DNA of 64,000 bases from an uncultured Verrucomicrobiae bacterium (GCA_963739345.1 CAVUAA010000002.1:397378-461377); one strand, 5' to 3'; shown: positions 18,810 through 59,717, numbered from the stretch's first letter. Numbers and translations: made by a program. The notes: generated by a model not told the origin, from the sequence alone.

Positions 18810-20237
18810 TCACCCAAGCAGTTGTCCAAAGTCGATGACTTGGGAGAAGAAGCCTGATTCGGCGACCTCGTCTGTGACGCCGTTGACGTGTATGAGGACA
18901 GGTCGGATGGAGTAGTTCCTAGGAGCCTTTAGCCTCTTGATCTTCTCCTTGATTTCGTCGACCACTGACCATCCCACTTCATCCTTGTTGAACTTGACTT
19001 CGCAAAGATAGAGCGTATTGAAACGAGTCTGAATCAGAAGATCGATTTGGCACCCTTTTTGTTTCAGCGTAGCGGTCTGAAAGTAGGGGCCACCAAATTG
19101 GAAGTCAGCGAGATCGATATGAAGTATTTCGTAAATTTTAGGGCGGTTGTTAAGCACCAAGTTTTCGAATTGCAGACCCATGATGCTGTGCCATTGGGGC
19201 ATTTCGGCTCGACCGTTTTGCAAAACCGTTTCTCTTCTCGGTTCGATATAGCGCAGGTAAAACCGAAGATAGTTGTCGCATAGGCGATAGCGGTTTAGCT
19301 TGCTCCGTTGGGTTGTGCCGGGTTCCCATCTGTACTCGCGAGCTAGGTATCCTGTTTTCACAAGATCATCAAGATAAGTGGATGTGACGCCTCCAGACTG
19401 TTCGCCCATTCCCTGTAGGATAGCTTCTTTAGCGAACGACCCCCTAACGGTTTGCTCGATCAGTTGCTTGTACTTCGCGCTCCGTTGTGAGAATAGATCG
19501 GAGAAGATTCGATCAAATTCGTTAAACAAAATCCCGTCTGGTCTGAAACAGAGTCGCTGGATATTTTCCTCAGCCGATATTTCAGGTCGAATGAGCTCTA
19601 GATAGCGAGGTACACCGCCCGTTACCGAAAGTAGCTTGAATTTTTCATATGGAGAGACAAGCTGAGCCTGTGCATTCCAGAAGTAGGAACATTGTTCTAT
19701 GGGGAGCTCTTTAAGCGTCATATCAAGCGTAACCCGTCCGAAAAAACCCGTTGAGCCGAGAATATTTTTCTCGATCCAGCCCGACATGGATCCGCTAAGA
19801 ATCAGAATGAGTTTTGGGTTTTTGCTCAGTTTTGCATCCCACGCAGTCTTTAGTTTCGGTAAAAACGTCGGGTCCTTGGAACCCATCCAATTGATTTCGT
19901 CCAGTACGATCACCACACGCCCGGTTGAGGTGAGTGCTGCTAGCTGAAGCAAGAGGTAATCCCAATTATCCTTGCGTATGCCAGTTTCGCCAAACTGATC
20001 CGCGAGTTGTGCCGCAAAGTGATCTCTTTGGTGTTGAGCAGAGGTCCCCTCTTCGGGCGCTAGGCCGAGAAAGCTAACGGTACGTAGGGGCTTGCAAAAT
20101 TCTTCGATGAGGCGCGACTTCCCAATGCGACGTCTCCCTTTGATGACGACTAAATTCGCAATTCGGAGCGTTAGTAGTTCGTGGAGAGCTTCGAGCTCAC
20201 GCTCTCGCCCGATAAATTTTTGTTCGTCGTTATTCAC
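18810..20237 (-). CDS. ATPase (archaeal ATPase_2-like) with wHTH and C-terminal PD-(D/E)XK nuclease, paralogue A
   Basis: FIGRERE, GRRRIGKS Walker A, IVLDEI Walker B, GGVPRYL, QIDLL...CEVK; GTG start with AAAGGAG RBS. Confidence 0.88.
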   Translation of the reverse strand: MNNDEQKFIGRERELEALHELLTLRIANLVVIKGRRRIGKSRLIEEFCKPLRTVSFLGLAPEEGTSAQHQRDHFAAQLADQFGETGIRKDNWDYLLLQLAALTSTGRVVIVLDEINWMGSKDPTFLPKLKTAWDAKLSKNPKLILILSGSMSGWIEKNILGSTGFFGRVTLDMTLKELPIEQCSYFWNAQAQLVSPYEKFKLLSVTGGVPRYLELIRPEISAEENIQRLCFRPDGILFNEFDRIFSDLFSQRSAKYKQLIEQTVRGSFAKEAILQGMGEQSGGVTSTYLDDLVKTGYLAREYRWEPGTTQRSKLNRYRLCDNYLRFYLRYIEPRRETVLQNGRAEMPQWHSIMGLQFENLVLNNRPKIYEILHIDLADFQFGGPYFQTATLKQKGCQIDLLIQTRFNTLYLCEVKFNKDEVGWSVVDEIKEKIKRLKAPRNYSIRPVLIHVNGVTDEVAESGFFSQVIDFGQLLG

Positions 20238-20255
20238 TTGGGGCTCCTTTTCGTT

Positions 20256-20403
20256 GCTATCCGCAAATCGCCATTTTAGTGATTTGTGGCTAGATATGTG
20301 CCCGTAATTTTCTATCCACAAATTCGCGTTTCGGCGATTTGCGGATAGATCAATTGGGGCTCAAGTCTATCCGCAAATCGCGTTTTATGCAATTTGCGGA
20401 TGA
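20256..20403. repeat. Three imperfect ~38-bp palindromes at 55-bp period upstream of ATPase A
   Basis: TCTATCCGCAAATCGC..GCGATTTGCGGATAGA-type units starting 20256, 20311, 20366. Confidence 0.88.
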
Positions 20404-20553
20404 ATTTGTCAGTCTATATTTTGTAAGTCGTTAATAATAAGAGGTTAATAAAATTCTAGTAGAGGCTCTAGACAGATGAAATAGGTCCTTTTGAATAGAC
20501 GAGGTGGGGGCGAGAATTGACCATCGGAGGTAAAAAGCGTAGCATGGGCAGCC

Positions 20554-21749
20554 ATGAGAGATGATGTGCGTGATGATTTTCCGATGTTGAGGGGGAGCTG
20601 TGTTATTTGGACACGGCAGCGACGGCGTTGAAGCCGCAGGTGGTGATCGATGCGGTGCAGAGATACTACGCGGAGGAGTGCGGGACGGTTCATCGGGGGG
20701 TGTATGGGCTGGCGGTGAGGAATACTGAGAAACAGCATGAGGTGAGGGGGCAGGTGGCGCGGTTTTTGAATGCGCCATCTGTTGATGAGGTGATTTTCAC
20801 GAAGGGGACGACGGAGGCGTTGAACCTGGTCGCCTACTGTTTGGGCGAGGCGTATGTGGACATGGGCGATGAGGTGGTGATCACTGAGGTGGAGCACCAT
20901 GCCAATATCGTGCCGTGGCAGCTGATGTGCGAGGCGCGGGGGGCGAGTCTCAAGGTGTTGCCGGTGGGTGATGACGGTGAGCTGATCTTGGAGGCGTTTG
21001 AGAATGTGCTGACCCACAAGACGAAGATTGTGGCGCTGGGTCATATTTCGAATGCGATTGGGACGGTACATCCGGTGAAACAGGTGGCGCTGTTGGCCAA
21101 AGAGGTTGGCGCCATGGTGGTGGTCGACGGGGCGCAGGCAGCACCGCATATGAAGATCGATGTGCAGGATCTGGGGGTCGATTTCTACGCGTTTTCGGCC
21201 CACAAGGCGTATGGCCCGACGGGGATTGGGGTGTTGTGGGGGAGGAAGGAGATTTTGGATACGCTCCCTCCTTATCAGGGGGGAGGGGACATGATTGAGG
21301 AGGTCACCTTCGAGGAGACCACCTACAATACGGTGCCGTTCCGGTTTGAGGCGGGGACGCCCCACATTGCGGGGATTCATGGATTGGGTGCGGCGATTGA
21401 GTATATTGAGAGTGTGGGTTTGGAGGCGATAGGTGCGCATGAGCAGCAGTTGCTAGCACATGCAACGAAGAGGATTGAGGAGGTTCCTGGGGTGCGGATC
21501 ATCGGAGAGGCGGAGCACAAGGCGGCGATCTTGAGCTTTGTGATTGAGGGGTGTCATCCGCTTGATGTGGGGACGCTGCTCGATCAGGAGGGGATTGCGG
21601 TGCGGACCGGTCACCACTGCGCCCAGCCGGCGATGAACCGCTTTGGGGTAAAGCACACAATTCGGGCCTCTTTTGCCCTTTACAACACTCTAAGTGATGT
21701 CGATCGGTTGATCGATGCGCTCAAGAAAATCCAGGCTAAACTTAAGTAA
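20554..21749 (+). CDS. sufS: Cysteine desulfurase SufS, with apparent 1-nt deletion in G-run at 20591-20595
   Basis: MRDDVRDDFPML then YLDTAAT in another frame; FSAHKAYGP, RTGHHCA motifs. Confidence 0.93.
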
Positions 21750-22566
21750 CGCCGAAGTAGCCGACGTCTTCTTCGATGCCGATGAGCCACGAGATGGTCT
21801 GGTGTTCGAGCTGCTGTAAGATGAAATGCCATGATATCCAGAGAATTGCCATGCCGACGAGCGACTTGAGCGCCCAGCCGAGGAAGGCCATGGGGACTTG
21901 GGGGGCCATCCGGTTGGAGATACCGAGAAAGAGGTCGGACATGAGGATGGCGACGAGGGCGGGGGCTGCGAGCTGAGCGGCGATCGACATGACGATGTTA
22001 CCAGCGTCGATCAGCTTTTGGGCGAGGGGGGTCTCGAGGTCAAGGAAGAAGGCGGGGTGGAGATATTCGTTTGGCGGGATGACGGTGAAAGAGAGGGAGA
22101 CGGAGTCTAGGAAGTAGAAGAGTCCGCCGATAGCCAAGAACATGTAGATGAGGACGAAGTTGTAGAGCTGGCCGATGGGGGAGTTTTGGGTCTGGAGGGT
22201 GGGGTCGGTCATCATCATGCTCGATGAGCCCCGCTGGTTGTCGATCAGGATGCCGGAGGTGTTGGCGATCCAGAAGGGCATGGAGACGAGGAAGCCGAGG
22301 ATGAAGCCGATTACCAGTTCTTTGAAGACGAGGCCAATGAAGTTGACGTCAAAGATGATGGGCTCGGGGGTGAGGTTCATCAGGAGGGGGAGAAAGATGA
22401 CGGAGAGACTGAGCAGGAGGCCCATCTTCACAGGGCCTGGGAGGAGGCGGGCGCCAAAGAAGGGAGCCATGACGATGATGGGGGCGAGCCGCATCATGCA
22501 GAGGACCAGGAGGAGGAAGAGCGACATGGGATGGGGGTTGTCTAGGACGAGGGAGAAGTAGTCCAC
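21742..22566 (-). CDS. sctT: T3SS export apparatus SctT
   Basis: Multi-TM; IDNQRG, ISNRMAPQ motifs; operon position. Confidence 0.93.
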   Translation of the reverse strand: MDYFSLVLDNPHPMSLFLLLVLCMMRLAPIIVMAPFFGARLLPGPVKMGLLLSLSVIFLPLLMNLTPEPIIFDVNFIGLVFKELVIGFILGFLVSMPFWIANTSGILIDNQRGSSSMMMTDPTLQTQNSPIGQLYNFVLIYMFLAIGGLFYFLDSVSLSFTVIPPNEYLHPAFFLDLETPLAQKLIDAGNIVMSIAAQLAAPALVAILMSDLFLGISNRMAPQVPMAFLGWALKSLVGMAILWISWHFILQQLEHQTISWLIGIEEDVGYFGVT

Positions 22567-22836
22567 TTAGGTTTGCCAGCGGGGGAAGTTGACGAAGATG
22601 TTGGAGGCGAACTGGAGGATCTGGGCGCCGAGATAGCCGCCCATGAGGACGATAGTGAGGATGGCTGCGACGAGTTTTACGGTAAAGGAGAGGGTCTGCT
22701 CTTGAATTTGTGTAGCCGCCTGGAAGATGGCGACGGTGAGGCCGGCGAGCATGGAGATGAGGATGGGGGGGGCGGAGAGAATGAGGATCATGAAGAGCGC
22801 TTCGTAGGTCAGCTGATAGATCTCATCTTGAAACAT
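22567..22836 (-). CDS. sctS: T3SS export apparatus SctS
   Basis: FQAATQIQEQTLSFTVKL motif. Confidence 0.95.
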   Translation of the reverse strand: MFQDEIYQLTYEALFMILILSAPPILISMLAGLTVAIFQAATQIQEQTLSFTVKLVAAILTIVLMGGYLGAQILQFASNIFVNFPRWQT

Positions 22837-22843
22837 GGCTATC

Positions 22844-23545: not shown

Positions 23546-23586
23546 GCTCGGAAGGAGGAAGCGCTATGAGCAAAAGCCAGCGTTTT

Positions 23587-26117: not shown

Positions 26118-27527
26118 ATGTCATTAACGAAGTATCCAGAAGGCTCTGTCCGCGAGCTCATGTGGGTGGCATTCCCCCTCATGCTCTCCTCCCTTTCCAC
26201 TCTGGCGATGGTTTTTGTCGACCGTCTCTTCCTCGCACACTACTCTCCTGCAGCACTCAGCGCTGCGGTCACCGCCGGTACCATGTGGTGGGCGATCACC
26301 GGAGCTCTCCTTATTCTGGCAGCCATGTCAGAGGTGTTTGTCGCGCAGTATAACGGTGCCGGACTCCATGAGAGAATTGGGCGACCTGTTTGGCAGATGA
26401 TCTGGTTTTCCTTCGGCACAATACTTATTTGCATCCCCCTCGGCCTCTACGGCGGCCGCCTCATCTTTCACGACAGCGTCAACTTTCAGCTCGAAACCAG
26501 CTACTTCGGTTGGCTTAACTTCTTTGGCCCCACTTGGCCTCTCTCTGCTGCCCTCTCCGCCTTTTGGGTTGGAAGGGGGAAGGTGCGGATGGTCACCATG
26601 CTCGCCCTTCTCGCTAACGGCCTTAACATCCTACTCGACTGGATCCTCATCTTTGGTATCGAAGGGTACGTTCCCTCCATGGGCGTTGTGGGCGCTGCCG
26701 TTGCCACCAGTTTCGGTAACGTCGTTCAGGTGGCGATTCTTTTAGGCCTATTCTTACGCAAACCGAATCGGGACAAGTTTGGCACCGGCCGCTTCAAGCT
26801 TCACTTTGCAGAATTTCGCCGTTGCCTAAAAGTGGGTGGCCCGCAGGCCACACTCTTCTTTTTCGAAGCAGTTGGGTGGGGGATATTTTACATCTTCCTT
26901 CGAAAGACCAGCGCCCTCAACATCTACACCGCTGGTATCGCGCAATCGGTCCTCATCCTCTTCTTCTTCATTGCAGAGGGAGTGGGACGTGGCGCCTCTG
27001 CCATCACCGGCAACATGATTGGCAGCGGCCGTCATGGAGAGGCGTTCAAAGTCTTTTGGGCTGGCATCAAGCTCCACCTCATCTTCTTCTGCCTCGTTGC
27101 AGTCGTTTTCATTGGTTTTCCCGATATGATCATCGATCTCTTCGTCAACGACACTACCGGCGTCCTTACCGAAGGGGGGACCCAACTCTCTGCAGCCCTA
27201 GAACTGCTAGAGGAGGGAGAGCTCGTTCACACCCTTCGCCTCACCTTCCGCGTCCTCACCCTCTACCTCCTCTTTGAAGGGGTTCGCTGGCTCATCTCCG
27301 GCATCCTCACCTCTGCAGGTGACACCCTCTTCCTTCTCATCGCCGGCACCGTCACCGTCCCCCTCCTCCTCCTCCTTCCCACCTGGTACTTCGTCGGCTA
27401 CCTCCACATTGGCGTCGTCGGCGCCTACATCCTCTCCGTCGCCTACGTCGCCGTTGTTGCCGGCATCTTCTACTGGCGCTTTGTCGCCCGCAAATGGCAA
27501 AACATCCAGCTCATCTCCCCGACCTAA
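26118..27527 (+). CDS. MATE family efflux transporter
   Basis: 12 TM pattern; FVDRLFL, VAQYNGA, NILLDWILIFG, GVVGAAVAT. Confidence 0.9.
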   Translation: MSLTKYPEGSVRELMWVAFPLMLSSLSTLAMVFVDRLFLAHYSPAALSAAVTAGTMWWAITGALLILAAMSEVFVAQYNGAGLHERIGRPVWQMIWFSFGTILICIPLGLYGGRLIFHDSVNFQLETSYFGWLNFFGPTWPLSAALSAFWVGRGKVRMVTMLALLANGLNILLDWILIFGIEGYVPSMGVVGAAVATSFGNVVQVAILLGLFLRKPNRDKFGTGRFKLHFAEFRRCLKVGGPQATLFFFEAVGWGIFYIFLRKTSALNIYTAGIAQSVLILFFFIAEGVGRGASAITGNMIGSGRHGEAFKVFWAGIKLHLIFFCLVAVVFIGFPDMIIDLFVNDTTGVLTEGGTQLSAALELLEEGELVHTLRLTFRVLTLYLLFEGVRWLISGILTSAGDTLFLLIAGTVTVPLLLLLPTWYFVGYLHIGVVGAYILSVAYVAVVAGIFYWRFVARKWQNIQLISPT

Positions 27528-27627
27528 GACCCCAATTGCCACCCTACCGTCCCCCTATCCCGCCTGTTTTTGGCAATCTACTTTGCCTCGCTCCTCAGAC
27601 GTGGCTGGTGGCCACGCCGTTCGTCGG
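27528..27627. mobile_element. MITE-like element, left half
   Basis: GACCCCAATTGCCACCCT left TIR right after MATE stop, plus conserved core; right end diverged. Confidence 0.78.
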
Positions 27628-27791
27628 ATTTCCCGGTCCTCGCGGCGCTCGCGACGGTCTAAAACCATCTTTAGCGTGAGGTTCAGGTCGCCAACCTAGC
27701 GGCTCAGCGTAGTGGCAGAATTAATCACATGATTTGGTAGTCACGTGCGCCTAACTCATTGACAATCAGATTTTTGGCCGCGACTAAAAAT

Positions 27792-27889
27792 ACGTCGATG
27801 TTAGAATGGTCGCGACAATTCTAACATCGACGTTATTTCTGCCGCGCTAACGTCCACTTCGGTGCCTGGCACCAAAGTGGACGTTAGCG
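27792..27889. repeat. Two adjacent REP-like palindromes (42 and 45 bp)
   Basis: ACGTCGATGTTAGAAT..ATTCTAACATCGACGT and CGCTAACGTCCACTT..AAGTGGACGTTAGCG. Confidence 0.85.
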
Positions 27890-28077
27890 ATCAGGCGAGG
27901 CGGTTCATGACTCGCTCGTAGTTGTGGTAGAGCAGCTTTATTGCGATCTCGAGATGAGCTCTGTGAAGCTCAGAGGCGGCTTGCCAAATTCACAGCCTGC
28001 TGCCATCCGGAATCGGCATCTCGCAGTCAGTTTTCCGCCGTTTGAGGTTCTGGTCGTCCACTTTGCTTGCGGTGCCT

Positions 28078-28818
28078 CTAAGATTCTGTGCAGAGAGTGA
28101 GGTAGGTGGCGAGGGGGTCGGGAGGGTTTTGCTTGAGGAGGGAGGTGGCGACGGCGGCAATTTCGCTGTCATTAGGGAACTGGGAGAGGATGTAGGCAGC
28201 CTGTTCAGTGTCGGGGCTGATCTCGGTATGAAGAAGAATGCGAAGGCAGAAGTCGCGGGCAGGGGTGCCGATGCGCAGAAGGGCTGCTGTCGCCTCCTCA
28301 TCAATGAAAGTGTCTTCATGACCGACGGTCTCGAAGAGGGCAGGAATCGCTTCAAGCGAGTTGAGGCAGCGGCAGGCCAGGCCGATGGCAAAGCCGTAGC
28401 CGGGGAAGAGGGGGTCGAGGAGGTTGGGGGTGTGGAGCAGCTTAAGGAGGGCAGGTGGTGGCTTTTTCGCCCACCTTGATCAGAGCGGCTACTGCTTCTT
28501 CCTCGTCCTCGTTTTCCGAAAGGATCAGATCGGAGATGAGACGGGGAATGGGATTCTTCTCATCCTCCACCTCGTAGATGGCGCGTAGGTTGTGGTACAT
28601 GGCAAGAGATTCATCTACGCGAGCCTGATCAGCTTCGGAAAGTGTGTAGGCCTCAGGGTATAGCCGCAATGCGCCTGCACACGCTCGATTTCGAGCACAG
28701 CTCCTTTGCCCCCTTTCTCATAGTAGTCGAGCATGATGCCAAAGCTCCCCCCAAAGTGAGCGTGCCGGTGCATCAGCACCTCAATGTCATCAGAGTCGTA
28801 AAGGGGTAGTCCTTCCAT
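28078..28818 (-). pseudogene. HEAT-repeat-like hypothetical protein split by two frameshifts (~28670, ~28455)
   Basis: Three consecutive frames join into one plausible helical protein ending LTLCTES*; may be assembly error. Confidence 0.6.
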
Positions 28819-28823
28819 CTTCG

Positions 28824-29612
28824 CTATTCCTCTTGCTTAGGAAGTCGGTTACGCAGAGTCTGAACGGCACCCTTGTCCAGTTTGGCTAGTGCAGCTAAGA
28901 AGCACTCTACAGGAGCGTCATCTTCTTGGGTAATCGCGTAGCGCGTTTTTGCATACTCGCTATCCAGAATACTTAGGTCAGAGGAGTCTTTCTTGAGTTT
29001 AAAATAGACGGCCCAGGTGAAGGCTTCTTCGACCCCAGCGTGAATCTGGCAGCTGCAATTAAGATCGGCAGCCTCAGAATCACCCCCAGCCTCCGCAAGC
29101 TCGATGAGAATGTCATCGATGCAGGGAAGTTTGAGGCTGGTCAGTTCACTAGGTGGTGCCAATTTAAGGCAGTGGACGAGCGCCTCTTTCTTCCCTTCGA
29201 GGTAACTGATGACCTGTGGGAGATTTACAAGCGCGTGCTCGCTATACGTGGATAAGATGTTGAGCTTCTTAATAGCGTTTGTGTCCTTGAGTTGGTCTTG
29301 AATATCCTTAACTAGCTGGATGAATCGGTTGGGGACTTTAGCTGCAATGGCTTTGATGTCCCTGTCCCTGTCCCTGTCCCTGTCGGATGTCGCTTTTAGG
29401 GAGCCTTCCGACTGTAGGGCGGGACTTGAGGTGTGGGCTAGGGCGAGGCCCAGTAGTGCAGTGGAGATGCTGGCGGTGGCCGGCCAGCGCCAGGAGAGGG
29501 TGTCGGGGCGAGTCGATTTGAGGGCGACGAGGGCTAGGGTGGTCAGTGCAGAAACTGTGTAGATGTATTTTAGGTAAGTGTGATTTTTAATACTGATGAT
29601 AGTCACTGACAT
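28824..29612 (-). CDS. Hypothetical protein with N-terminal bilobed hydrophobic domain (Inc-like)
   Basis: Two adjacent hydrophobic segments at aa ~15-62; RD repeat from (TGTCCC)n. Confidence 0.65.
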   Translation of the reverse strand: MSVTIISIKNHTYLKYIYTVSALTTLALVALKSTRPDTLSWRWPATASISTALLGLALAHTSSPALQSEGSLKATSDRDRDRDRDIKAIAAKVPNRFIQLVKDIQDQLKDTNAIKKLNILSTYSEHALVNLPQVISYLEGKKEALVHCLKLAPPSELTSLKLPCIDDILIELAEAGGDSEAADLNCSCQIHAGVEEAFTWAVYFKLKKDSSDLSILDSEYAKTRYAITQEDDAPVECFLAALAKLDKGAVQTLRNRLPKQEE

Positions 29613-40373: not shown

Positions 40374-40972
40374 AGCCAGAAGAGATCCAAAAAATCCTCG
40401 ATGAGCTCTATCCCGATCCACCCATTCCGCTCCAGCACGATGATGAGTACACCTTGTTAATTGCCGTCCTCCTCTCGGCGCAGTGCACGGATGCGCGGGT
40501 GAATCTGGTCACGCCCGCTCTTTTCGCCCGTGCACGGACGCCTGAAGAGATGATCAAACTCGATCCGAAAGAGATCGAGGAGATCATCCGCACCTGCGGT
40601 CTCGCCCCCTCGAAGAGTCGCGCGATTCACGAGCTCTCCCGCCTCATCCTTGAGCGGCACGGTGGCCATGTTCCCGATTCTTTTGCCGCCCTCGAAGCAC
40701 TCCCCGGTGTAGGCCATAAGACAGCTTCGGTCGTCATGTCACAAGCGTTTGGCCAGCCCGCCTTTCCGGTCGACACTCATATTCATCGATGTGCCAAGCG
40801 GTGGGGTTTGTCCTCTGGAAAAAATGTGGTGCAGACCGAGCGCGACCTGAAGCGGGCTTTTCCCAAAGCCTCGTGGAACAAGCTTCATCTCCAAATCATC
40901 TATTTCGCTAGGGAATATTGTCCTGCACGCGCCCATGACCTAAGTCACTGTCCTATATGCGCTTGCACATGA
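40370..40972 (+). CDS. nth: Endonuclease III
   Basis: LLSAQCTD, LPGVGHKTA HhH, VDTH, C-terminal Cys cluster. Confidence 0.96.
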   Translation: MKPEEIQKILDELYPDPPIPLQHDDEYTLLIAVLLSAQCTDARVNLVTPALFARARTPEEMIKLDPKEIEEIIRTCGLAPSKSRAIHELSRLILERHGGHVPDSFAALEALPGVGHKTASVVMSQAFGQPAFPVDTHIHRCAKRWGLSSGKNVVQTERDLKRAFPKASWNKLHLQIIYFAREYCPARAHDLSHCPICACT

Positions 40973-41035
40973 CCATTATTCACGCCATGGCAAAATGGTC
41001 TTGACCATTTTGCCATGGCGTGAATAATGGTCATG
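40968..41035. repeat. Perfect 33-bp inverted repeat with 2-nt loop upstream of ATPase D
   Basis: CATGACCATTATTCACGCCATGGCAAAATGGTC-TT-exact reverse complement. Confidence 0.95.
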
Positions 41036-41045
41036 GGAGGGCGAG

Positions 41046-42257
41046 ATGAAAAGATTCTATTTAAAGGTGATCAAAGAGCATTTTCAGGAAAATCGGCAGA
41101 TGCTGTTTCTGATGGGCCCGAGACAGGTGGGAAAGACAACCCTGGCCGAGCTGCTGATCGAAGGGGATGGGCCCTCCTTCTATTTCAACTACGATCGCGA
41201 AATCGATCGGATGCTCATCTTGGAAGGATCCAATGCGATCGCTGAGCGAGCGGGGTTGCTCGGAGCCGTTGAGATTCCTCCTCTCGTTGTGTTCGATGAG
41301 CTACACAAGCGTCGCCTGTGGACTATATTCCTCAAAGGGCTGTTCGATTCCTACCCAAACAAGCTCCACATTCTTGTGATGGGGAGCGCCCGTCTCAATG
41401 TCTATCAGCGGGGCGGAGATAGCATGATGGGGCGCTACTTCTACTATAGAATTCATCCTCTATCGGTGGGGGAGTTGGTCGATTCAGAAACGATTCCGGA
41501 GTCCTATCGACCAATGCCAACCCAAATTGATGAGGCGCAGTGGGAGGCGCTGTGGCGCTTTGGGGGTTTCCCTGATCCTTTTCTAAAGGCTGATTCTCGT
41601 TTCTATAACCGTTGGAAGCGGATGCGAGCGCAGCAGATCTTCCAAGAAGATCTGCGAGACATTAGTCGAGTTGAGCACATCAGCCAGATTGAGCACTTGG
41701 CTGAGCTTATACGGCAGCAAGTGGGACAGGGGACCAGCTATACCAGCCTGTCGCGACAAATTTTGGCAGCGATCGGAAGTGTGAGGCGGTGGCTCAACCT
41801 CCTCACCTCAATCTACTATTGCTTTCCAGTCCGTCCGTGGTCAAAAAATCTGGCCCGATCTCTTAGGAAGGAGCCCAAGTACTACTTGTGGGACTGGTCG
41901 CTCTGTGATGACGAAGGGGCGCGAGCCGAAAACATGGTTGCCTCTCATCTCTATAAAACCGTTCACTTTTGGACTGACCACGGAATGGGCCAGTTCGAGC
42001 TCTACTACCTTCGCGACAAGGAAAAGCGTGAGGTCGACTTCTTAGTTGCTAAGGACGGCGAACCATGGATGTTGGTTGAGGTGAAGCGGAGCAATAGCCG
42101 CAGCATATCGCCAGCGCTCAAGTATTATGCTGAGCGACTTCCCGCGAAACATGTCTTTCAGGTGGTCTTCGACCTGCCATACGTCGACGTCGATTGTTTC
42201 AGTTATGATCATCCGATCATCGTTCCGGCGCGGACGTTTTTGTCGCAGTTGGTGTGA
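41046..42257 (+). CDS. AAA_14/DUF4143-type ATPase with C-terminal PD-(D/E)XK-like nuclease, gene D
   Basis: GPRQVGKT, VVFDEL, GGFP, PKYYLWD, EVDF...VEVK. Confidence 0.88.
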   Translation: MKRFYLKVIKEHFQENRQMLFLMGPRQVGKTTLAELLIEGDGPSFYFNYDREIDRMLILEGSNAIAERAGLLGAVEIPPLVVFDELHKRRLWTIFLKGLFDSYPNKLHILVMGSARLNVYQRGGDSMMGRYFYYRIHPLSVGELVDSETIPESYRPMPTQIDEAQWEALWRFGGFPDPFLKADSRFYNRWKRMRAQQIFQEDLRDISRVEHISQIEHLAELIRQQVGQGTSYTSLSRQILAAIGSVRRWLNLLTSIYYCFPVRPWSKNLARSLRKEPKYYLWDWSLCDDEGARAENMVASHLYKTVHFWTDHGMGQFELYYLRDKEKREVDFLVAKDGEPWMLVEVKRSNSRSISPALKYYAERLPAKHVFQVVFDLPYVDVDCFSYDHPIIVPARTFLSQLV

Positions 42258-48247: not shown

Positions 48248-49207
48248 ATGGCGAACTTCGTTCCAAAAAAAGCTTCTATTTTTTCGGGCTCGCAAGAGCG
48301 TGTGCAGCGGGGTCGTGAGCTGGTGCAGAAGGACAAAGTGGGCTGTCTGTTGCTCGCCGGTGGACAGGGGACGCGGCTCAGATTTGATGGGCCAAAGGGT
48401 TTGTTTCCCATTGGACTGAATGGGGAGACGCTCTTTCAATTGTTTCAGGAAAAAAGAGCGGTGGCGGGAGAGGATCTTCCGTTTGCGATTTTGGTCTCGC
48501 CCGAAAATGAAGGTGCAACGCGGGAGGCGGTGCCAGAAGCTGACATTTGCGTGCAGGGGGTGTTGCCGCTTCTCAATGAGGCGGGTGAGGAGTTTCTAAA
48601 GGGGCCCGGAGAGACGGCGGTGGGGCCTGATGGAAATGGATTGGCGCTCCGCCGCTTTGTCGAGTCGGGCATTTGGGAGAGGTGGCGAGAACAGGGTGTG
48701 GAGTATCTCAATATTGCTCTGGTCGATAATCCGCTGGGTGATCCCTACGACGCCGAGCTGGTAGCGTTTTGTGAGGGGTTGGACATTGCGGTGAAAGCGA
48801 CGAAGCGGCGCCATGCACAGGAGAGAGTGGGGGTGATTGTTGAGGATGGGAGCAAGCTGCGGGTGATTGAGTATTCGGAGTTGGAGGATGGGGGTGATTA
48901 CGAGCTGGCCAACTTAAGCCTCTTCTGCATGACGATGGAGTTTGCGAAGCGGGCGGCCGCGGAGGAGCTGCCGCTTCACCGTGCACACAAGGCAGTGCCG
49001 ATGTGGGATGGGGAGAAGACTGTTTGGCCGAAGGCACCCAACGCTTGGAAGTCGGAGTACTTCATCTTCGATATCCTTCCCTTGGCCGAGCGGGCTGATG
49101 TGATCTGCTATCCGCGGGAGGAGTGCTTCGCTCCTCTTAAGAATGCGGAGGGTGAGGAGAGCCCCGAGACCGTCCGTGCTGCTTTGGCCGCTAGAATAGA
49201 GTGGTGA
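48248..49207 (+). CDS. Eukaryote-type UDP-GlcNAc/UDP-glucose pyrophosphorylase (UDPGP family)
   Basis: LLAGGQGTRL..PKG, PDGNG, VDNPL, EYSE, FAPLKN motifs. Confidence 0.9.
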   Translation: MANFVPKKASIFSGSQERVQRGRELVQKDKVGCLLLAGGQGTRLRFDGPKGLFPIGLNGETLFQLFQEKRAVAGEDLPFAILVSPENEGATREAVPEADICVQGVLPLLNEAGEEFLKGPGETAVGPDGNGLALRRFVESGIWERWREQGVEYLNIALVDNPLGDPYDAELVAFCEGLDIAVKATKRRHAQERVGVIVEDGSKLRVIEYSELEDGGDYELANLSLFCMTMEFAKRAAAEELPLHRAHKAVPMWDGEKTVWPKAPNAWKSEYFIFDILPLAERADVICYPREECFAPLKNAEGEESPETVRAALAARIEW

Positions 49208-50618
49208 AGTCGACGATATGGTCGAGCTCCTGGCTCTCACGGACGCCTTGTGTGATCCCATTGACGTGGATGAGGACTTGGCGTGTTGACCAATGTCTTG
49301 GAATTTGGAGGCGGACTCGCTTCTCTTTCATTTGGTGGACGACATCTAGGCCGACCGAGTCGTTGCTGAATTTGATCTCGCAGAGAAAAAGGGTGCGGTG
49401 GCGGGTCTGAATGGCGAGATCGACTTGGCTTCCTTTTTGTCGCTGTGTAGGACGTTGGAAGTAGGGGCCGTACATTTCAACGTCACCGGTTGATAGGTTG
49501 AGATGGTCGAAGAGGGTGGGGGCGTTTTGAATGACGAGGTTTTCGAATTGCAGGCCCATTGTCGACTCCCATCCAGGGAGCGATGCGAGGGAGGGAGGGG
49601 CGTACCGGGCTCGCTCGATTTTGTCGCGGTTGGGAAGAAGATAGCGGAGATAGAAGCGGAGGTAGTTGTCGGCCAGCCGAAATTTTTTTAGACGGGAGGT
49701 TTTGCCTGTTTTGAACGACCAGGTCGGATCATCGGCGACAAAGCCCGCTTGGATCAGATCGTTTAGTAGGGCTGAGAGCCATCCGCTTTTGTCGAGATTG
49801 AGCGCATGCTGAAGAGCTGCTAAATCGCTTGGACCATTGGCTAGGCGGTGCACGACATCCATGTAAAGAGGCGCCCGTTTAGAGAAGAGGTCAGAGAAGA
49901 TCCGTTCGAACTCAGCAAAAAGGAGGCCTGCTTTATTGAAGCAGAGGCGGTGGATGTTTTCTTCGGCCGATAGGTGGGGCAACACCTCCTCGAGATAGCG
50001 TGGCACGCTGCCGGTCACCGAAAGAACCTTTAATATTTCATGAGGGCTGACGCGGTCACGGCGGCCGTCCCAGAACTCTGCAGCATCCTTCAGAGGAAGG
50101 GGGTCGAGCTTCAGATCGCAAGAGATCCTCCCCAAGAATCCGGTCGAGCTTAGAATATTTTTTTGGATCCAACTAGACACCGAACCGCAGACGATGAGAA
50201 TCAGTTTCGGGTTCTTAGAGAAGTGAAGATCCCAAGCGTTTTTGAGTTGGCCCAGAAAGTGGGGATCCTTGGATCCAATCCACGAAATTTCATCGAGGGA
50301 CAAAATCACCCGTCCCTTTTTTGTCAGCTGTCCGAGTTGCCAGAAGAGGTCTCCCCAACTTTCTGCTCGAGGCTTGGGGATTCCAAAGAGCTGGGCCATT
50401 CTTTCGCCAAACTGTTCAAGCTGTGTTTGGTGGCTCGTGGCATGGCTAGGTGGTATGCCCGAGAAGGTGTAGCAAGGCATGTCGCTCCCAAACTCCTGAA
50501 TCAATCGGCTCTTGCCGATTCGTCTCCTTCCGCGGATGACCACGAAGGAGGCCGATCTTTTCTTCAGGTAGGAGCGGAGCAGTTCGAGCTCCTGTGATCG
50601 TCCAATAAAGCGTGTCAT
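49191..50618 (-). CDS. ATPase-wHTH-PD-(D/E)XK nuclease, paralogue B
   Basis: FIGRSQE, GRRRIGKS, LSLDEI, GSVPRYL, QVDLA...CEIK. Confidence 0.88.
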   Translation of the reverse strand: MTRFIGRSQELELLRSYLKKRSASFVVIRGRRRIGKSRLIQEFGSDMPCYTFSGIPPSHATSHQTQLEQFGERMAQLFGIPKPRAESWGDLFWQLGQLTKKGRVILSLDEISWIGSKDPHFLGQLKNAWDLHFSKNPKLILIVCGSVSSWIQKNILSSTGFLGRISCDLKLDPLPLKDAAEFWDGRRDRVSPHEILKVLSVTGSVPRYLEEVLPHLSAEENIHRLCFNKAGLLFAEFERIFSDLFSKRAPLYMDVVHRLANGPSDLAALQHALNLDKSGWLSALLNDLIQAGFVADDPTWSFKTGKTSRLKKFRLADNYLRFYLRYLLPNRDKIERARYAPPSLASLPGWESTMGLQFENLVIQNAPTLFDHLNLSTGDVEMYGPYFQRPTQRQKGSQVDLAIQTRHRTLFLCEIKFSNDSVGLDVVHQMKEKRVRLQIPRHWSTRQVLIHVNGITQGVRESQELDHIVDFTTLF

Positions 50619-50632: not shown

Positions 50633-50711
50633 GTATCACAAGAATGACATATGTCAATCATGGGATATGGGGCTGTTCCGTCAAGCCGTATCACAAGAAT
50701 GACATATGTCA
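50633..50711. repeat. Two identical 24-bp repeats at 55-bp period upstream of ATPase B
   Basis: GTATCACAAGAATGACATATGTCA at 50633 and 50688; palindromic core TGACATATGTCA. Confidence 0.9.
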
Positions 50712-53381: not shown

Positions 53382-53465
53382 ACAGGTTTTGTGTGGTTGC
53401 CGCCGTTTGCGGTATTGAAATTTGTGCGACCGCAGGATGCGGTCGCTCATATTGAATTGGATGGC

Positions 53466-54422: not shown

Positions 54423-54501
54423 GGTGGTAGGATTATAACGGAATAGCGGGGAAAGACAAGGGCTGATAGAATCGCCCGATCAGGTTACGTATGAGGAAGC
54501 T

Positions 54502-56591: not shown

Positions 56592-56603
56592 GATCATTTC
56601 TCT

Positions 56604-57401
56604 ATGAAACGGATAGGTTTTCTCCTAATTCTTACCTGCTTACTGGTGACTGGCATCTTTGCCGGCCTCTATTTTTTCTGGCATCGGCAAGAGATGCGTG
56701 CGGGAAAAGTGGCGACGCTTGAGCAGCTCTACGGCGCTGACGAGTGGACCGCTGATTTTCTAGCAGCTGAGCCCAAAAAGCGGATCGCCGAGGTGCGCAA
56801 GGAGCTTCAATCTCAGCTTGCGATGGCGAAGACGACGCTTGAGAAGATGGAGCGGCTCGTTAGCCACATTCTTAACGAGGTGCAAACCTATGCCGGAATT
56901 CCGGCGGCCGGTCTGGGTAAATTGACCGGGCTCGAAATCTACCGTGATATGGTTGAGGGGAGAGCTTCGGTCAACAGTGATCATCTCACTCGCGCCTACG
57001 TCGGTGTGGCCAATGCGGTGGGCATTCCGACACGTCTGGTCCAGGCAGGTGAGCAAAGTTTTGCTGAGAGCTGGGTGGCTGAGTGGGACAAATGGGCCTT
57101 TGTCGACATTAGCTCCCGCAAAGCGTACGTGGTCGATGGGACCGGCATCCCGCTTGATGCAGTTGAGTTGCTCGTCGCCCTGAGAGAGGGAATCGACGAA
57201 TGGATGGAAGTGGCCCTGTTTCAAGGGGGAGAGATCACCCGCGCGCCGTGTGAAGCCGAACAGCTTCACCTCTCTACTACTGCCGTTCTCTGTTACCCCC
57301 GCGCACAACACCTTTACGGCTCTGCGATCCGGAGAAAAGGGTACGAGCTCTTCTCTCCCAAACTTCTCTATGCGTTTGATCACTCTGTTACAGTTGGATA
57401 A
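56604..57401 (+). CDS. Membrane-anchored transglutaminase-like domain protein, probably inactive
   Basis: N-terminal TM; ANAVGIPTRLV and ESW..KWAFVD pattern. Confidence 0.55.
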   Translation: MKRIGFLLILTCLLVTGIFAGLYFFWHRQEMRAGKVATLEQLYGADEWTADFLAAEPKKRIAEVRKELQSQLAMAKTTLEKMERLVSHILNEVQTYAGIPAAGLGKLTGLEIYRDMVEGRASVNSDHLTRAYVGVANAVGIPTRLVQAGEQSFAESWVAEWDKWAFVDISSRKAYVVDGTGIPLDAVELLVALREGIDEWMEVALFQGGEITRAPCEAEQLHLSTTAVLCYPRAQHLYGSAIRRKGYELFSPKLLYAFDHSVTVG

Positions 57402-58178
57402 CGGTGCTGTTTCGTTCTGCCGTCTTATCTCGCCGATAGGAAAACCAGTCGTCTGGGTTTTCATGAGTGCAGATTTCTGCAATCTCGATGTGGTGAGGGA
57501 GAAGTCCCACCTCCTCTAGCTGCCACCGGCTGATCTTCCAAAAATCGAAATAGTTGGGGCGTATCTGGTATTCCCAGAACGACCTGGGCAGTTCGGTGCG
57601 GAAGTTGACGAACTCTCCGTTTTCTGGTCCGAGACTTGGCGAAATCCCCACCAGCAGATTCTCCGGACGGCAGTGATGAACCGTTTGCAGATGTTCCACC
57701 ACCACTCGATAGATATTCTGAACACTCCCTTTCCATCCGCAGTGGACGGCGGCGGCCAGTCTCTCTACCGGATCATAAATAAGTGCAGCTTGGACCCAGA
57801 TTGCTACCCTCTCTTCCCCCTATGACGCTCAGCTTTTGGTAATCTACTTCGCCTCGCTCCTCACCCATGACTACCGCCATGGGACTCATCGCGATGCTCG
57901 TATCTCACTCAAAATCAGACGCCCTAGTGGAACGATAGGGTAGCAATCTGGGTCTTGGCAATCGGTATGCTTAATCATCGCCGCCTGCCCCGGCTGTGAG
58001 ATCACCAGCGCATCGGCCTCCCCCACCAATCCCACCTGCCCTGGCTGCACCTCAATGATGCCTACTCCATGCACCTGGTGGGCATAGGCCAGATTTGGCG
58101 TCACCCAATCCACCCAGCTGTTTCGGGGAAAGCAGCCGTGCTCCACCTCCCTCAGAATCTCAAATTTTTCACGTTCAT
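57388..58178 (-). pseudogene. pgeF: PgeF/YfiH laccase-domain protein interrupted by a MITE
   Basis: HQVHG, ADAL, HTDCQ|AALIYDP..HCGWKG, ICT..FSYRR; insertion brings in stops. Confidence 0.88.
57793..57954. mobile_element. Intact 162-bp MITE-like element with perfect 18-bp TIRs and target duplication
   Basis: GACCCAGATTGCTACCCT...AGGGTAGCAATCTGGGTC flanked by TTG/TTG (or CTTGG with 17-bp TIRs); removal restores pgeF. Confidence 0.93.
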
Positions 58179-58216
58179 ATGTGCATCCTACTGATTATCA
58201 GTGACTGTTGTCAAGA

Positions 58217-58259
58217 CAGGCATCACCAAAATCGATTTTTCTTGTTTTGGTGATGCCTG
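58217..58259. repeat. 15-bp perfect inverted repeat upstream of ATPase C
   Basis: CAGGCATCACCAAAA-N13-TTTTGGTGATGCCTG. Confidence 0.88.
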
Positions 58260-58280
58260 CAGGGTAGAATGGGGGGGGAA

Positions 58281-59717
58281 ATGGGAACACGATTTTACGG
58301 ACGAGAGCGGGAATTGGAGATATTGAGCGAGCTGCTTGAGAAGCAGGTCGCCAGCTTGGTTGTGCTTAAAGGACGACGGCGAATTGGCAAGAGCCGATTG
58401 ATGGAGGAGTTTGGGCAACAGCTCAAAACTCTAACGTTTGAGGGGATCCCCCCCAAAGATGACAAGGTGACCGCCCAGGATCAGCGCAATCACATGGCTA
58501 ACGAGATGAATCGTGAACTGGGTTTACGGGGGATCAAAGCGGACGATTGGGACGATCTCCTTTGGCATCTGGCACAGCAGACTCAAGAGGGGCGTGTGCT
58601 TATCATCTTTGATGAGATTAACTGGATGGGATCGGCTGATCCTACGTTTTTGGGCAAACTCAAGACGGCTTGGGACAAGTACCTTAAGAAGAACCCGAAG
58701 CTGATCATGATTCTCAGTGGCTCCATGTCAGGTTGGATTGAGCGGAATATTCTTAGTAGTACAGGATTTCTCGGACGGGTGTCGATTGATATGACGTTGG
58801 AGGAGCTCCCCCTCCATCAGTGCGACCAGTTTTGGGGGAGAGCGAGAGAGACGACGTCGGCAATAGAAAAATTTAAGATCCTTTCGGTGACCGGAGGCGT
58901 GCCCCGCTATCTCGAAGAGATCGATCCTAAGCGGACGGCAGAGGAGAACATCTTTAGGCTCTGCTTCAGAAAAGAAGCGCTCCTCTTCAACGAGTTTGCG
59001 CGGATCTTCTCCGATCTTTTTTCTCAGCGGGCTAAGACCTATCAGAAAATTGTGACCCGGCTGGCGATGGGGAGTGCGACCGTCGAAGAGGTATGTGATT
59101 TTGTGGGTGTGAAGAAGGGAGGGCTAATTAGCGGATACCTGCTCGACCTAGAAGAGACGCAGTACGTTGCGCGGGACTACAGCTGGAGTATTAAGTCAGG
59201 CAGACGGGTCAACATCAGTCGGCACCGACTCAAAGACAATTATCTCCGCTTTTATCTGCGCTACATCCTGCCCAATGTTGAAGCGATAAAAAAGCAGCGT
59301 ATGAAAAAACCGCCGGCGTGGGATGCAATCATGGGCCTGCAGTTTGAGAACCTCGTCGCGAATAACTTCCGTAGTCTCTACAGCACGCTCGGCATTCCAC
59401 CCGAATCGGTGGTGCACGACGGACCCTATTTTCAGCGGAAGACAAAAGTGCATCCGGGGTGTCAAATCGACTACCTGATCCAGACTGAGTACAACAATCT
59501 CTACCTATGCGAGATGAAATTTTCGGCAAAGCCGATCGGTCCGAAAGTGATTTCACAGGTGCAAGATGCAATTGAGCGTCTCCACCTTCCAGGCGGCCGT
59601 TTTTCCTACCGCCCAGTGTTGATCCACGCCAACGGCGTGAGCGATGCCGTTCGGAACAGTGACTTTTTCACTCACATTGTTGATTTCGGTGACTTGTTGA
59701 AAGGGGAAGGATCATGA
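58281..59717 (+). CDS. ATPase-wHTH-PD-(D/E)XK nuclease, paralogue C (alternative start 58269)
   Basis: FYGRERE, GRRRIGKS, IIFDEI, GGVPRYL, QIDYL...CEMK. Confidence 0.88.
   Translation: MGTRFYGRERELEILSELLEKQVASLVVLKGRRRIGKSRLMEEFGQQLKTLTFEGIPPKDDKVTAQDQRNHMANEMNRELGLRGIKADDWDDLLWHLAQQTQEGRVLIIFDEINWMGSADPTFLGKLKTAWDKYLKKNPKLIMILSGSMSGWIERNILSSTGFLGRVSIDMTLEELPLHQCDQFWGRARETTSAIEKFKILSVTGGVPRYLEEIDPKRTAEENIFRLCFRKEALLFNEFARIFSDLFSQRAKTYQKIVTRLAMGSATVEEVCDFVGVKKGGLISGYLLDLEETQYVARDYSWSIKSGRRVNISRHRLKDNYLRFYLRYILPNVEAIKKQRMKKPPAWDAIMGLQFENLVANNFRSLYSTLGIPPESVVHDGPYFQRKTKVHPGCQIDYLIQTEYNNLYLCEMKFSAKPIGPKVISQVQDAIERLHLPGGRFSYRPVLIHANGVSDAVRNSDFFTHIVDFGDLLKGEGS

What the first reader, a model, noticed from the sequence alone, without database searches (positions are those of the whole stretch)
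18810..59717. Dispersed ATPase-nuclease genes, each paired with its own upstream palindrome element
Seen: four genes (18810-20237, 41046-42257, 49191-50618, 58281-59717) combine a P-loop ATPase, a wHTH-like region and a C-terminal D..ExK nuclease motif. Each has, about 10-21 bp before its start, a long palindromic element unrelated in sequence to the others. A and B split gene pairs normally adjacent in Chlamydia (sufD/sufS; UDP-sugar pyrophosphorylase/gpsA). Known: these ATPase families (ATPase_2/DUF234, AAA_14/DUF4143) are widespread but functionally little characterised. Inference: a diversified one-gene module in which each protein recognises its cognate site, either as an autoregulatory operator, a self-recognition mark for a defence nuclease, or a mobility site. 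This is the best candidate for an undescribed system here.
Basis: partly seen in the sequence, partly recalled or inferred. Interest (0 to 1): 0.85.

Follow-up and report, generated by a model that had tools for sequence, protein, structure and literature searches.

The report
Self-regulated ATPase-nuclease gene cassettes
Four stand-alone genes for ATP-driven DNA-cutting proteins of two common but untested "candidate phage-defence" families each carry a private set of palindromic DNA sites on their own promoter, most likely the sites through which each protein controls its own gene.

Summary
The window has three ATPase_2/DUF234-type genes (A, C, D; PADLOC PDC-S27) and one AAA_14/DUF4143 gene (B; PDC-S01). 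Each has Walker A/B motifs, a winged helix and an intact D...ExK nuclease motif, and each has repeats ending 10-21 nt before its start.

The whole 1.72-Mb chlamydia-like genome holds 8 + 7 such genes. Thirteen of the 15 carry a locus-specific inverted repeat upstream.

The layout is family-wide, from Chlamydiota to Gammaproteobacteria, Bdellovibrionota, Kiritimatiellae, Planctomycetota and Bacteroidales. Private arms flank an A/T-rich centre that resembles a -35 box. Units often come in 2-3 tandem copies, about 54-55 bp apart. Within a locus, tandem copies agree best in the arms, which points to sequence-specific reading.

A and C are lineage-specific insertions between genes that are adjacent in relatives.

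Best reading (about 0.55): cognate auto-regulatory operator arrays bound by each cassette's own protein. Binding, nuclease activity and defence are all untested, and protein-DNA covariation was equivocal.

The gene families are known candidates. I found nothing in print on the operator layout. Earlier notes of this scan reached the same reading on other genomes.

The parts
18810..20237 (-). Gene A: ATPase_2-type NTPase + winged helix + PD-(D/E)xK nuclease (PADLOC PDC-S27). It is inserted between sufD and sufS.
   Evidence: PDC-S27, E 2.5e-81. sufD and sufS lie 51-161 nt apart in 28 of the 29 relatives' loci that hold both; only this genome has the ATPase between them.
20257..20409 (-). Operator-like array of gene A: three units (20257-20299, 20312-20354, 20367-20409) of ATCCGCAAAT-N13-ATTTGCGGAT type, spaced exactly 55 bp. 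Each is followed by a TAGnnn hexamer that resembles a -10 box.
   Evidence: Exact arms occur only here. No promoter reaches the tool's threshold on this strand; the weaker -35/-10 matches are my own reading.
41046..42257 (+). Gene B: AAA_14 + DUF4143 ATPase-nuclease (PADLOC PDC-S01).
   Evidence: (PDC-S01, E 3.2e-45).
40968..41035 (+). Perfect 68-bp palindrome of gene B: two inverted ~30-bp units of GACC-N22-GGTC type. Their junction GGTC-TT-GACC supplies a -35 box (TTGACC-16-AATAAT at 41001-41028).
   Evidence: A GTC-NN-GAC junction lies 38-78 nt upstream in 11 of 12 B-like loci, against 32 of 600 random windows.
49191..50618 (-). Gene C: PDC-S27-type ATPase-nuclease, inserted between the UDPGP-family gene and gpsA.
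   Evidence: E 4.3e-84. UDPGP and gpsA lie less than 300 nt apart in 18 of 29 relatives' loci, and none of the 29 has an ATPase there.
50633..50711 (-). Two identical 24-nt repeats of gene C (50633-50656, 50688-50711), 55 bp apart, each with the 12-bp palindrome TGACATATGTCA. The proximal copy carries TTGACA-16-TACAAT (11 of 12 matches, with TG).
58281..59717 (+). Gene D: PDC-S27-type ATPase-nuclease. The model shows an NTPase at 1-235, a winged helix at about 238-317 and an alpha-beta-beta-beta-alpha-beta nuclease at 348-478.
   Evidence: (pLDDT 93).
58217..58259 (+). Inverted repeat of gene D: CAGGCATCACCAAAA-N13-TTTTGGTGATGCCTG, followed by TAGAAT at 58265-58270.
   Evidence: No + strand promoter reaches the tool's threshold.
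27792..27833 (+). Orphan S01-type operator: 16-nt arms around a GGTCGCGAC centre, preceded by GACTAAAAAT. No S01 or S27 coding sequence lies nearby.
   Evidence: tblastn of 27400-29000 with all paralogues: nothing below E 0.1.

Best explanation
Each gene is a self-contained one-gene cassette. It encodes an Orc/STAND-like P-loop NTPase, an ArsR-like winged helix and a PD-(D/E)xK nuclease, all behind its own sigma-70-type promoter. That promoter is overlaid by 1-3 symmetric, locus-specific binding units.

The most likely mechanism is auto-regulation. The cassette's own protein binds as a symmetric dimer or higher oligomer, through the winged helix, to the private half-sites that flank the -35 box. 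Tandem units about 54-55 bp apart (about five helical turns) would allow cooperative, in-phase binding, which would keep a potentially self-harming ATP-dependent nuclease at a low, buffered level. Divergent half-sites would let many paralogues (15 here) coexist without cross-repression.

Shown: the anatomy, its privacy to each locus, its conservation across phyla, the constraint on the arms, and the insertion of A and C. Inferred: who binds, the direction of regulation, nuclease activity and any defence role.
For: 1. Prevalence. In this genome 13 of 15 paralogues carry a private upstream inverted repeat of score >=10. An inverted repeat scoring >=12 within 200 nt upstream occurs in 17 of 27 S27 loci of the same order, 42 of 78 S27 loci from other taxa and 10 of 21 S01 loci, against 11 of 116 flanking control genes.

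2. Privacy. Exact arms are found only at their own locus. They do not belong to the genome's REP or MITE families.

3. Constraint on sequence. In 24 tandem-unit pairs from 20 loci, identity between copies peaks in the arms: 0.79 at 11-16 nt from the centre (up to 0.96 at single positions), against 0.55 at the centre and 0.49 in the linkers.

4. Phasing. Of 37 adjacent centre-to-centre distances, 24 fall at 50-57 bp (mode 54-55) and 3 fall at 107-108 bp.

5. Promoter overlap. B has TTGACC-16-AATAAT centred on its palindrome, and C has TTGACA-16-TACAAT inside its proximal repeat.

6. The element moves with the gene. The same layout is seen in Gammaproteobacteria, Vibrio, Bdellovibrionota, Kiritimatiellae, Lentisphaerae, Planctomycetota and Bacteroidales. 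The only gene always linked to it is the ATPase; the C cassette is just the gene plus 177 bp.

7. The protein could bind DNA. The winged helix of the C-terminal half superposes on dimeric ArsR/SmtB and MarR repressors (TM 0.6-0.7 on the target, rmsd 3.3-4.5 A over about 100 residues). The whole protein superposes on DNA-bound Orc1/Cdc6.

8. Covariation. A partial Mantel test gives half-site distance against winged-helix distance, given ATPase distance, r = 0.125 and p = 0.001. The reverse test gives r = 0.006 and p = 0.45.

9. Possible action in trans. S27-type units also precede an isochorismatase-domain gene, and one of them shares the arms of paralogue P4.
Against: - No binding, expression or activity data exist.
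- Among 54 closely related protein pairs, half-site divergence tracks the ATPase domain (r = 0.63) at least as well as the winged helix (r = 0.49). The covariation signal is therefore weak and could reflect shared descent.
- The NTPase-helical-winged-helix fold also matches the NOD module of STAND proteins (NLRs, Apaf-1), where the winged helix does not bind DNA.
- Perfect arms of 20-33 nt (B, P5 and several relatives) are longer than a winged helix needs.
- A and D have no promoter that reaches the consensus threshold on the coding strand.
- Some loci have tandem units with different arms (P4, P5, L036).
- Two of 15 paralogues (P8, Q7) lack a clear repeat.
- Fold-search E-values for the C-terminal half are weak (1e-2 to 3e-4).
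Confidence: 0.55

Rival explanations
1. The palindromes act as DNA structures (cruciforms or replication-fork hairpins), not as read sequences. Extrusion would switch the embedded promoter, or would give the junction-type substrate that a PD-(D/E)xK nuclease and ATPase senses or cuts. The arms could then drift freely as long as they stay complementary.
For: Many arms are long and perfect, well beyond a usual operator: 33 nt in B, 24 in P5 and 24-26 in relatives. Arm sequence turns over fast while symmetry is kept: half-site mismatch is already 0.49 at 20-35% protein divergence. The -35 box sits at the apex. Fold neighbours of the nuclease domain include McrC, MspJI and NucS-type enzymes.
Against: Tandem copies within a locus keep the same arm sequence while their centres and linkers diverge; a structure-only model does not predict this. 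C has direct repeats with almost no flank symmetry. Typical units have 10-15-nt arms around a 13-nt A/T-rich centre, which is a poor cruciform. Only 32 of 123 units have perfect arms.
Confidence: 0.12
2. The sites are self-marks or assembly platforms for the nuclease and not primarily operators. The protein would be parked or assembled on its own array, as Orc1/Cdc6 is on ORB elements, and released or activated by a trigger. Alternatively the array would protect or address the cassette, in the manner of an addiction or incompatibility function.
For: The fold resembles Orc1/Cdc6 bound to origin DNA. The arrays are strictly phased at 54-55 bp. ATPase and nuclease residues are invariant. Cassettes are many, patchily distributed and recently inserted: 15 of 41 genomes of the order have S27, with up to 8 copies, and A and C are insertions.
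Against: Nothing separates this from simple auto-repression, and the elements overlap promoters in B and C. Orphan operators occur without a gene and in front of other genes. There is no evidence of cleavage or of any trigger.
Confidence: 0.12
3. The elements are mobility or replication sites of the cassette: recombination or integration sites, or an origin for an excised circle.
For: A and C sit between genes that are adjacent in relatives. The gene and its element spread across phyla at about 50% identity. The protein has an Orc-like fold.
Against: No recombinase, transposase or relaxase is linked. The element lies on one side only. I found no terminal repeats, target duplications or duplicated neighbour-gene ends; only unrelated MITEs turned up. 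The element's position relative to the start codon and the promoter hexamers is what is conserved.
Confidence: 0.07
4. A host transcription factor, or RNA polymerase alone, reads the conserved centre, and the flanking symmetry is a by-product of palindrome-templated mutation.
For: The centre (A)AATCGACAWWTGTCGATT(T) recurs at several S27 loci, and also before an IS200-like gene and an isochorismatase gene. It contains a hexamer close to TTGACA.
Against: The centre is the least conserved part between tandem copies and is missing in many relatives, whereas the arms persist. The layout crosses phyla, so a lineage-specific host factor is unlikely. Templated mutation does not explain identical arms in separate tandem units.
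Confidence: 0.06

Closest known systems
PADLOC phage-defence candidates PDC-S27 (ATPase_2/PF01637 + DUF234) and PDC-S01 (AAA_14 + DUF4143; COG1373)
   Same: These are full-length HMM matches. A, C and D match PDC-S27 at E 2.5e-81, 4.3e-84 and 1.5e-71; B matches PDC-S01 at E 3.2e-45. All are single genes fusing an ATPase to a PD-(D/E)xK nuclease. [quoted passage not shown] Passages of bioRxiv 10.1101/2024.01.29.577857 define PDCs by embedding in BREX, DISARM and type I RM loci.
   Different: Here the genes are not embedded in defence loci. They lie singly among housekeeping genes, 15 copies in 1.72 Mb. The private, phased operator-like arrays are not mentioned in the passages I read.
Controller (C) proteins and C-box operators of restriction-modification systems (recalled, not read here)
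   Same: A nuclease-encoding, horizontally moving module is kept in check through paired palindromic operators on its own promoter. Operator specificities differ between systems.
   Different: The C protein is a small separate HTH protein. Here the putative DNA-binding domain is fused to the ATPase-nuclease itself, the units are 30-45 bp long, and the arrays repeat every 54-55 bp (S27) or about 32 bp (B-like S01).
Archaeal Orc1/Cdc6 initiators encoded next to origins with paralogue-specific ORB inverted repeats (biology recalled; fold match: 2v1u, 2qby, 1fnn)
   Same: A P-loop NTPase with a winged helix is encoded directly beside repeated, symmetric DNA elements specific to its paralogue.
   Different: No TIGR02928 membership (18.7 bits against a cut-off of 181.3). 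There is an extra C-terminal nuclease. The elements overlie promoter hexamers. The hosts are bacteria. No unwinding element or replication evidence was found.
Archaeal ATPase_2 proteins SSO1545 (PDB 2FNA) and PABY2304 (2QEN)
   Same: They are the best fold matches (E 1.7e-10 and 3.4e-10, TM 0.63-0.64 on the target). 2QEN is also the only significant PDB sequence match (E 3.3e-5).
   Different: They are about 350 residues long and lack the C-terminal PD-(D/E)xK domain. Their function is also unknown.
REP/TIR palindromes and IS982-derived MITEs of the same genome
   Same: These are also palindromic and intergenic. An IS200/Y1-type gene is present.
   Different: They are multi-copy families, mostly at gene ends. 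The ATPase-linked arms are single-locus and lie upstream of the start.

Membership tests
PADLOC PDC-S27 | Full-length match to the PDC-S27 HMM (PDLC04984) | tested here: met
   A: E 2.5e-81, profile positions 3-471 of 474. C: E 4.3e-84. D: E 1.5e-71.
PADLOC PDC-S27 | ATPase_2 (PF01637) domain above Pfam's gathering score | tested here: met
   50.0, 46.0 and 53.0 bits against a cut-off of 33.2.
PADLOC PDC-S27 | DUF234 (PF03008) PD-(D/E)xK domain | tested here: inconclusive
   Only C hits, at 20.4 bits, below the 22.5 cut-off. However, D397, E411 and K413 are invariant in 32 homologues, the model has the alpha-beta-beta-beta-alpha-beta topology, and the fold matches MspJI, McrC, NucS, AF1548 and Can2/Card1 nucleases at E 3e-4 to 1e-2.
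PADLOC PDC-S27 / PDC-S01 | Anti-phage activity | not testable with these tools
   [quoted passage not shown] Nothing here bears on it.
PADLOC PDC-S01 | AAA_14 + DUF4143 above Pfam cut-offs, and a PDC-S01 HMM match | tested here: met
   B: AAA_14 75.8 bits (cut-off 27), DUF4143 93.8 bits (cut-off 28.1); PDLC04790 at E 3.2e-45.
Orc1/Cdc6 replication initiators (TIGR02928) | Score above the family cut-off | tested here: not met
   18.7 and 18.6 bits against a cut-off of 181.3. There is fold-level likeness only.
STAND NTPases (NLR/Apaf-1/Avs type) | NTPase-helical-winged-helix NOD module plus a repeat or sensor domain | tested here: inconclusive
   The NOD-like fold matches NRC3, Sr35, Apaf-1 and CED-4, and nSTAND6 hits only at E 0.01. 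No repeat or sensor domain is present: the protein ends with the nuclease at residue 478.
Auto-regulated operator-promoter (C-protein-like logic) | Symmetric sites overlapping the gene's own -35/-10 | tested here: inconclusive
   Met for B and C by the consensus scan. Not met at the tool's threshold for A and D.
Auto-regulated operator-promoter (C-protein-like logic) | The encoded protein binds these sites and changes transcription | not testable with these tools
   Only indirect evidence: private arms, arm constraint between tandem copies, an ArsR-like winged helix and equivocal covariation.
REP / MITE repeat families | Many near-identical copies dispersed in the genome | tested here: not met
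   The arms of A, B, C and D occur only at their own loci.

The most novel reading that the evidence does not exclude
The private, phased site arrays are more than operators. Each cassette is a one-gene 'addressed nuclease'. Its Orc/STAND-like ATPase assembles on its own array, and the array serves as a self-mark and holding platform that gates the nuclease. Co-resident cassettes are forced to diversify their addresses (incompatibility groups). This would explain how reduced genomes of intracellular bacteria tolerate and keep exchanging a dozen or more active ATP-dependent nucleases.
Probability: 0.12. Interest if true: 0.8.

Novelty: new variant of a known kind. Interest (0 to 1): 0.55.

Why it matters
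[quoted passage not shown] If each protein reads the private sites in front of its own gene, every homologue comes with a predicted DNA ligand. Binding, ATP dependence, oligomerisation on phased sites and nuclease control then become directly testable.

This would also give a natural series of matched protein-site pairs for working out how this winged helix reads DNA.

Finally, it would explain how many paralogous nuclease cassettes coexist and move between intracellular bacteria (Chlamydiota, Legionellales-like and Bdellovibrio-like lineages). If the sites are only ordinary auto-repressor operators, the result is a useful annotation rule, not a new principle.

Tried and rejected
- Homodimer prediction of protein D (complex prediction): no support. 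This is not evidence either way.
- RNA evidence: no RNA holder was listed (three DNA runs of one study), and read laying was not used. There is therefore no mapping of transcription starts.
- RNA hairpin idea: arm mismatches show no strand-specific wobble bias (G:T 37, A:C 30, other 73), and the promoter hexamers lie inside the units. Dropped.
- Terminator idea: no terminator-like sites in the four upstream regions.
- REP/MITE idea: rejected for the ATPase-linked arms.
- A degraded second gene in 17750-18810, and ORFs near B, D and the orphan operator: no Pfam hits.
- My first two attempts to separate unique from repeated arms failed. In one search, 10-mers recur by chance. In one search, the shared centre made paralogue arms look 'repeated'. 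I replaced them with direct arm searches.
- The automated arm/spacer partition of tandem pairs was noisy (arms 0.75, spacer 0.62). I replaced it with a position profile.
- Sequence-profile search of the C-terminal half against PDB: only ArsR at E 0.65, not significant.
- Literature searches: DUF4143 (4 papers); DUF234 (84 papers by word start, almost all other DUF234x families; 2 by whole word); PDC-S27/PDC-S01 (8 papers); ATPase_2/PF01637 and COG1373/COG1672/AAA_14, both swamped by unrelated hits. None of the listings or passages I read mentions upstream palindromes or auto-regulation of these families.

Full report
**1. What is there.**
The four ORFs exist as described.
- A (18810-20237, -), C (49191-50618, -) and D (58281-59717, +) are paralogues, 50-56% identical. 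They carry Pfam ATPase_2 above its cut-off. DUF234 is only a sub-threshold hit, and only in C.
- B (41046-42257, +) is AAA_14 + DUF4143.
- PADLOC models place A, C and D in PDC-S27 (E 1e-71 to 1e-84, nearly full length) and B in PDC-S01 (E 3e-45).
- In an alignment of 32 S27 homologues the Walker A motif GRRRxGK, the Walker B motif DE and the nuclease residues D397, E411 and K413 are invariant.
- In 27 S01 homologues GxRxxGKxT, DE, E329 and D331 are invariant.

A high-confidence model of D (pLDDT 93) shows three parts: an NTPase (residues 1-235), a winged helix (about 238-317) and an alpha-beta-beta-beta-alpha-beta nuclease domain (348-478).
- The whole protein resembles the uncharacterised archaeal ATPases 2FNA and 2QEN, the NOD modules of STAND proteins, and Orc1/Cdc6, including DNA-bound forms.
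- The C-terminal half resembles ArsR/SmtB- and MarR-type dimeric repressors in its winged helix. Its last domain resembles MspJI, McrC, NucS, AF1548 and Can2/Card1-type nucleases. These E-values are weak, 3e-4 to 1e-2.

**2. The upstream elements.**
- A has three ~43-nt units spaced exactly 55 bp.
- B has a perfect 68-bp palindrome.
- C has two identical 24-nt direct repeats 55 bp apart, each holding a 12-bp palindrome.
- D has 15-nt arms around a 13-nt spacer.

All four end 10-21 nt before the start codon. For C, 'long palindrome' overstates what is there.

The genome is rich in palindromes: 255 perfect inverted repeats with arms of at least 10 nt, against 23-27 in shuffles. Most of these belong to multi-copy REP-like families and MITEs at gene ends, and an IS200/Y1-type gene is present. 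The ATPase-linked arms are different, because exact copies occur only at their own locus.

**3. It is a property of the gene families.**
The 1.72-Mb genome holds 8 S27-type and 7 S01-type genes. Thirteen of the 15 have a locus-specific inverted repeat of score >=10 upstream; P8 and Q7 do not.

With a crude gene call, 12 of 15 paralogues have an upstream repeat scoring >=12, against 92 of 1530 other genes. Two of the 12 score through a neighbouring REP element.

| Set of loci | Upstream repeat of score >=12 |
|---|---|
| S27, relatives of the same order | 17 of 27 |
| S27, other taxa | 42 of 78 |
| S01, relatives | 10 of 21 |
| Flanking control genes in the same loci | 11 of 116 |

 The control is conservative, since divergent neighbours share the ATPase's upstream region. 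Record titles of the related loci show Chlamydiota. They also show Legionellales, Thiotrichales and other Gammaproteobacteria, Alphaproteobacteria, Bdellovibrionota, Myxococcota, Kiritimatiellae, Lentisphaerae, Verrucomicrobia, Planctomycetota and Bacteroidales.

**4. Architecture.**
*S27 units.* A unit is a private arm (8-15 nt, often ending CAAAT), an A/T-rich centre of about 13 nt, and the arm's reverse complement. In many loci the centre reads (A)AATCGACAWWTGTCGATT(T). I found 123 units in 86 of 115 loci. Of 37 adjacent centre-to-centre distances, 24 are 50-57 bp (mode 54-55) and 3 are 107-108 bp.

*B-like S01 loci.* These have two ~30-bp units of GACY-N22-24-RGTC type with a private inner palindrome. 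The junction GTC-NN-GAC lies 38-78 nt upstream in 11 of 12 loci, against 32 of 600 random windows.

*Promoter.* The centre or junction coincides with a -35-like hexamer, and a -10-like hexamer follows the right arm. This passes the consensus scan for B (TTGACC-16-AATAAT) and C (TTGACA-16-TACAAT). For A and D I see only weaker matches, which the tool does not call.

**5. Are the arms read as sequence?**
In 24 tandem pairs from 20 loci, identity between the two copies varies with distance from the centre:

| Distance from the unit's centre | Identity between tandem copies |
|---|---|
| 0-5 nt | 0.55 |
| 6-10 nt | 0.69 |
| 11-16 nt | 0.79 |
| 17-20 nt | 0.67 |
| 21-27 nt | 0.49 |

Neutral homogenisation would treat the whole repeat alike, and a structure-only model does not need different units to share arms. 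This is therefore the strongest argument for a sequence-specific, symmetric reader.

The arms are private, and the element moves with the gene across phyla. The only candidate encoded at every locus is the ATPase-nuclease itself; the C cassette is just the gene plus 177 bp.

Covariation is equivocal. A partial Mantel test favours the winged helix over the ATPase domain (r = 0.125, p = 0.001, against r = 0.006, p = 0.45). Among 54 close pairs, however, half-site divergence follows the ATPase domain (r = 0.63) at least as well as the winged helix (r = 0.49). Arm similarity is almost lost at 20-35% protein divergence (mismatch 0.49).

**6. Insertion.**
sufD and sufS are 51-161 nt apart in 28 of the 29 relatives' loci that hold both. 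Only this genome has gene A, on the opposite strand, between them.

The UDPGP-family gene and gpsA are less than 300 nt apart in 18 of 29 relatives' loci. None of the 29 has an ATPase there, whereas here gene C sits between them.

S27 was found in 15 of the 41 genomes of the order that I searched, with up to 8 copies. S01 was found in 19 of 41, with up to 13. No recombinase, terminal repeat or duplicated neighbour end was found, only unrelated MITEs at window 18008-18169 and 57793-57955.

**7. Reading.**
The best-supported reading is that these are auto-regulatory operator arrays, as set out under the best explanation. The rivals, with their weights, are listed in their own section. Binding, direction of regulation, nuclease activity and defence are all inferred.

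**8. Known or new.**
The gene families are known candidates. DUF234 and DUF4143 are listed as PD-(D/E)xK families of unknown function (PMC3424549, passages). PDCs are defined by 'guilt by embedding' (bioRxiv 10.1101/2024.01.29.577857, passages). [quoted passage not shown]

None of my searches showed a description of the upstream arrays. Supplements were closed.

Earlier AI notes of this scan describe the same layout and the same reading in other genomes. They are not independent evidence. One of them claims covariation with the reading helix, which I could only partly reproduce.

Noticed in passing
window 27792-27833 (with its left extension from about 27775): An orphan S01-type operator: ACGTCGATGTTAGAAT-GGTCGCGACA-ATTCTAACATCGACGT, preceded by GACTAAAAAT. 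No S01 or S27 coding sequence lies within 27400-29000, and a REP-family palindrome sits directly after it. It could be a remnant of a lost cassette, or a site acting on another gene.
   Followed up: partly
G000:C1:1082806-1082884 (locus L043), upstream of an isochorismatase-domain gene (L043:701-1288, -): Two S27-type units, centres 55.0 bp apart, with different arms. One (GCGGAACAGGAA-tgacatttgtcg-ATCCTGTTCCGC) shares the arm core and centre of paralogue P4's operator. An ATPase-type operator may therefore control a non-ATPase gene.
   Followed up: partly
G000:C2:104126-104165 (locus L044), between an IS200/Y1_Tnp-like gene (L044:253-1254, -) and a 450-aa ORF that I did not identify (L044:1453-2805, +): An S27-type centre (AAATcgacaaatgtcgAATTT) with imperfect palindromic flanks lies upstream of the only Y1-transposase-like gene I saw. 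That gene probably drives the genome's REP-like palindrome families.
   Followed up: no
window 18008-18169 and 57793-57955: Two different ~162-nt hairpin MITEs lie in the non-coding flanks of cassettes A and D. The first has 5 copies in the genome. The second has about 40 hits of 73-92% identity.
   Followed up: partly
window 18777-18788: A further S27-type centre (TGACAATTGTCG) without symmetric flanks lies about 20 nt beyond the stop of gene A. It sits inside about 640 nt of apparently non-coding, lower-GC DNA that came in with the insertion.
   Followed up: no
whole genome G000: The genome has about ten times more perfect inverted repeats than shuffled sequence (255 against 23-27). There are at least six REP-like families, mostly at gene ends and some inside ORFs.
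   Followed up: partly
loci L004, L005, L036 and L039 (relatives and own paralogues P4 and P5): Some loci have tandem units at the usual 54-57 bp spacing but with different arms. This could mean cross-regulation between paralogues, or operator turnover.
   Followed up: no
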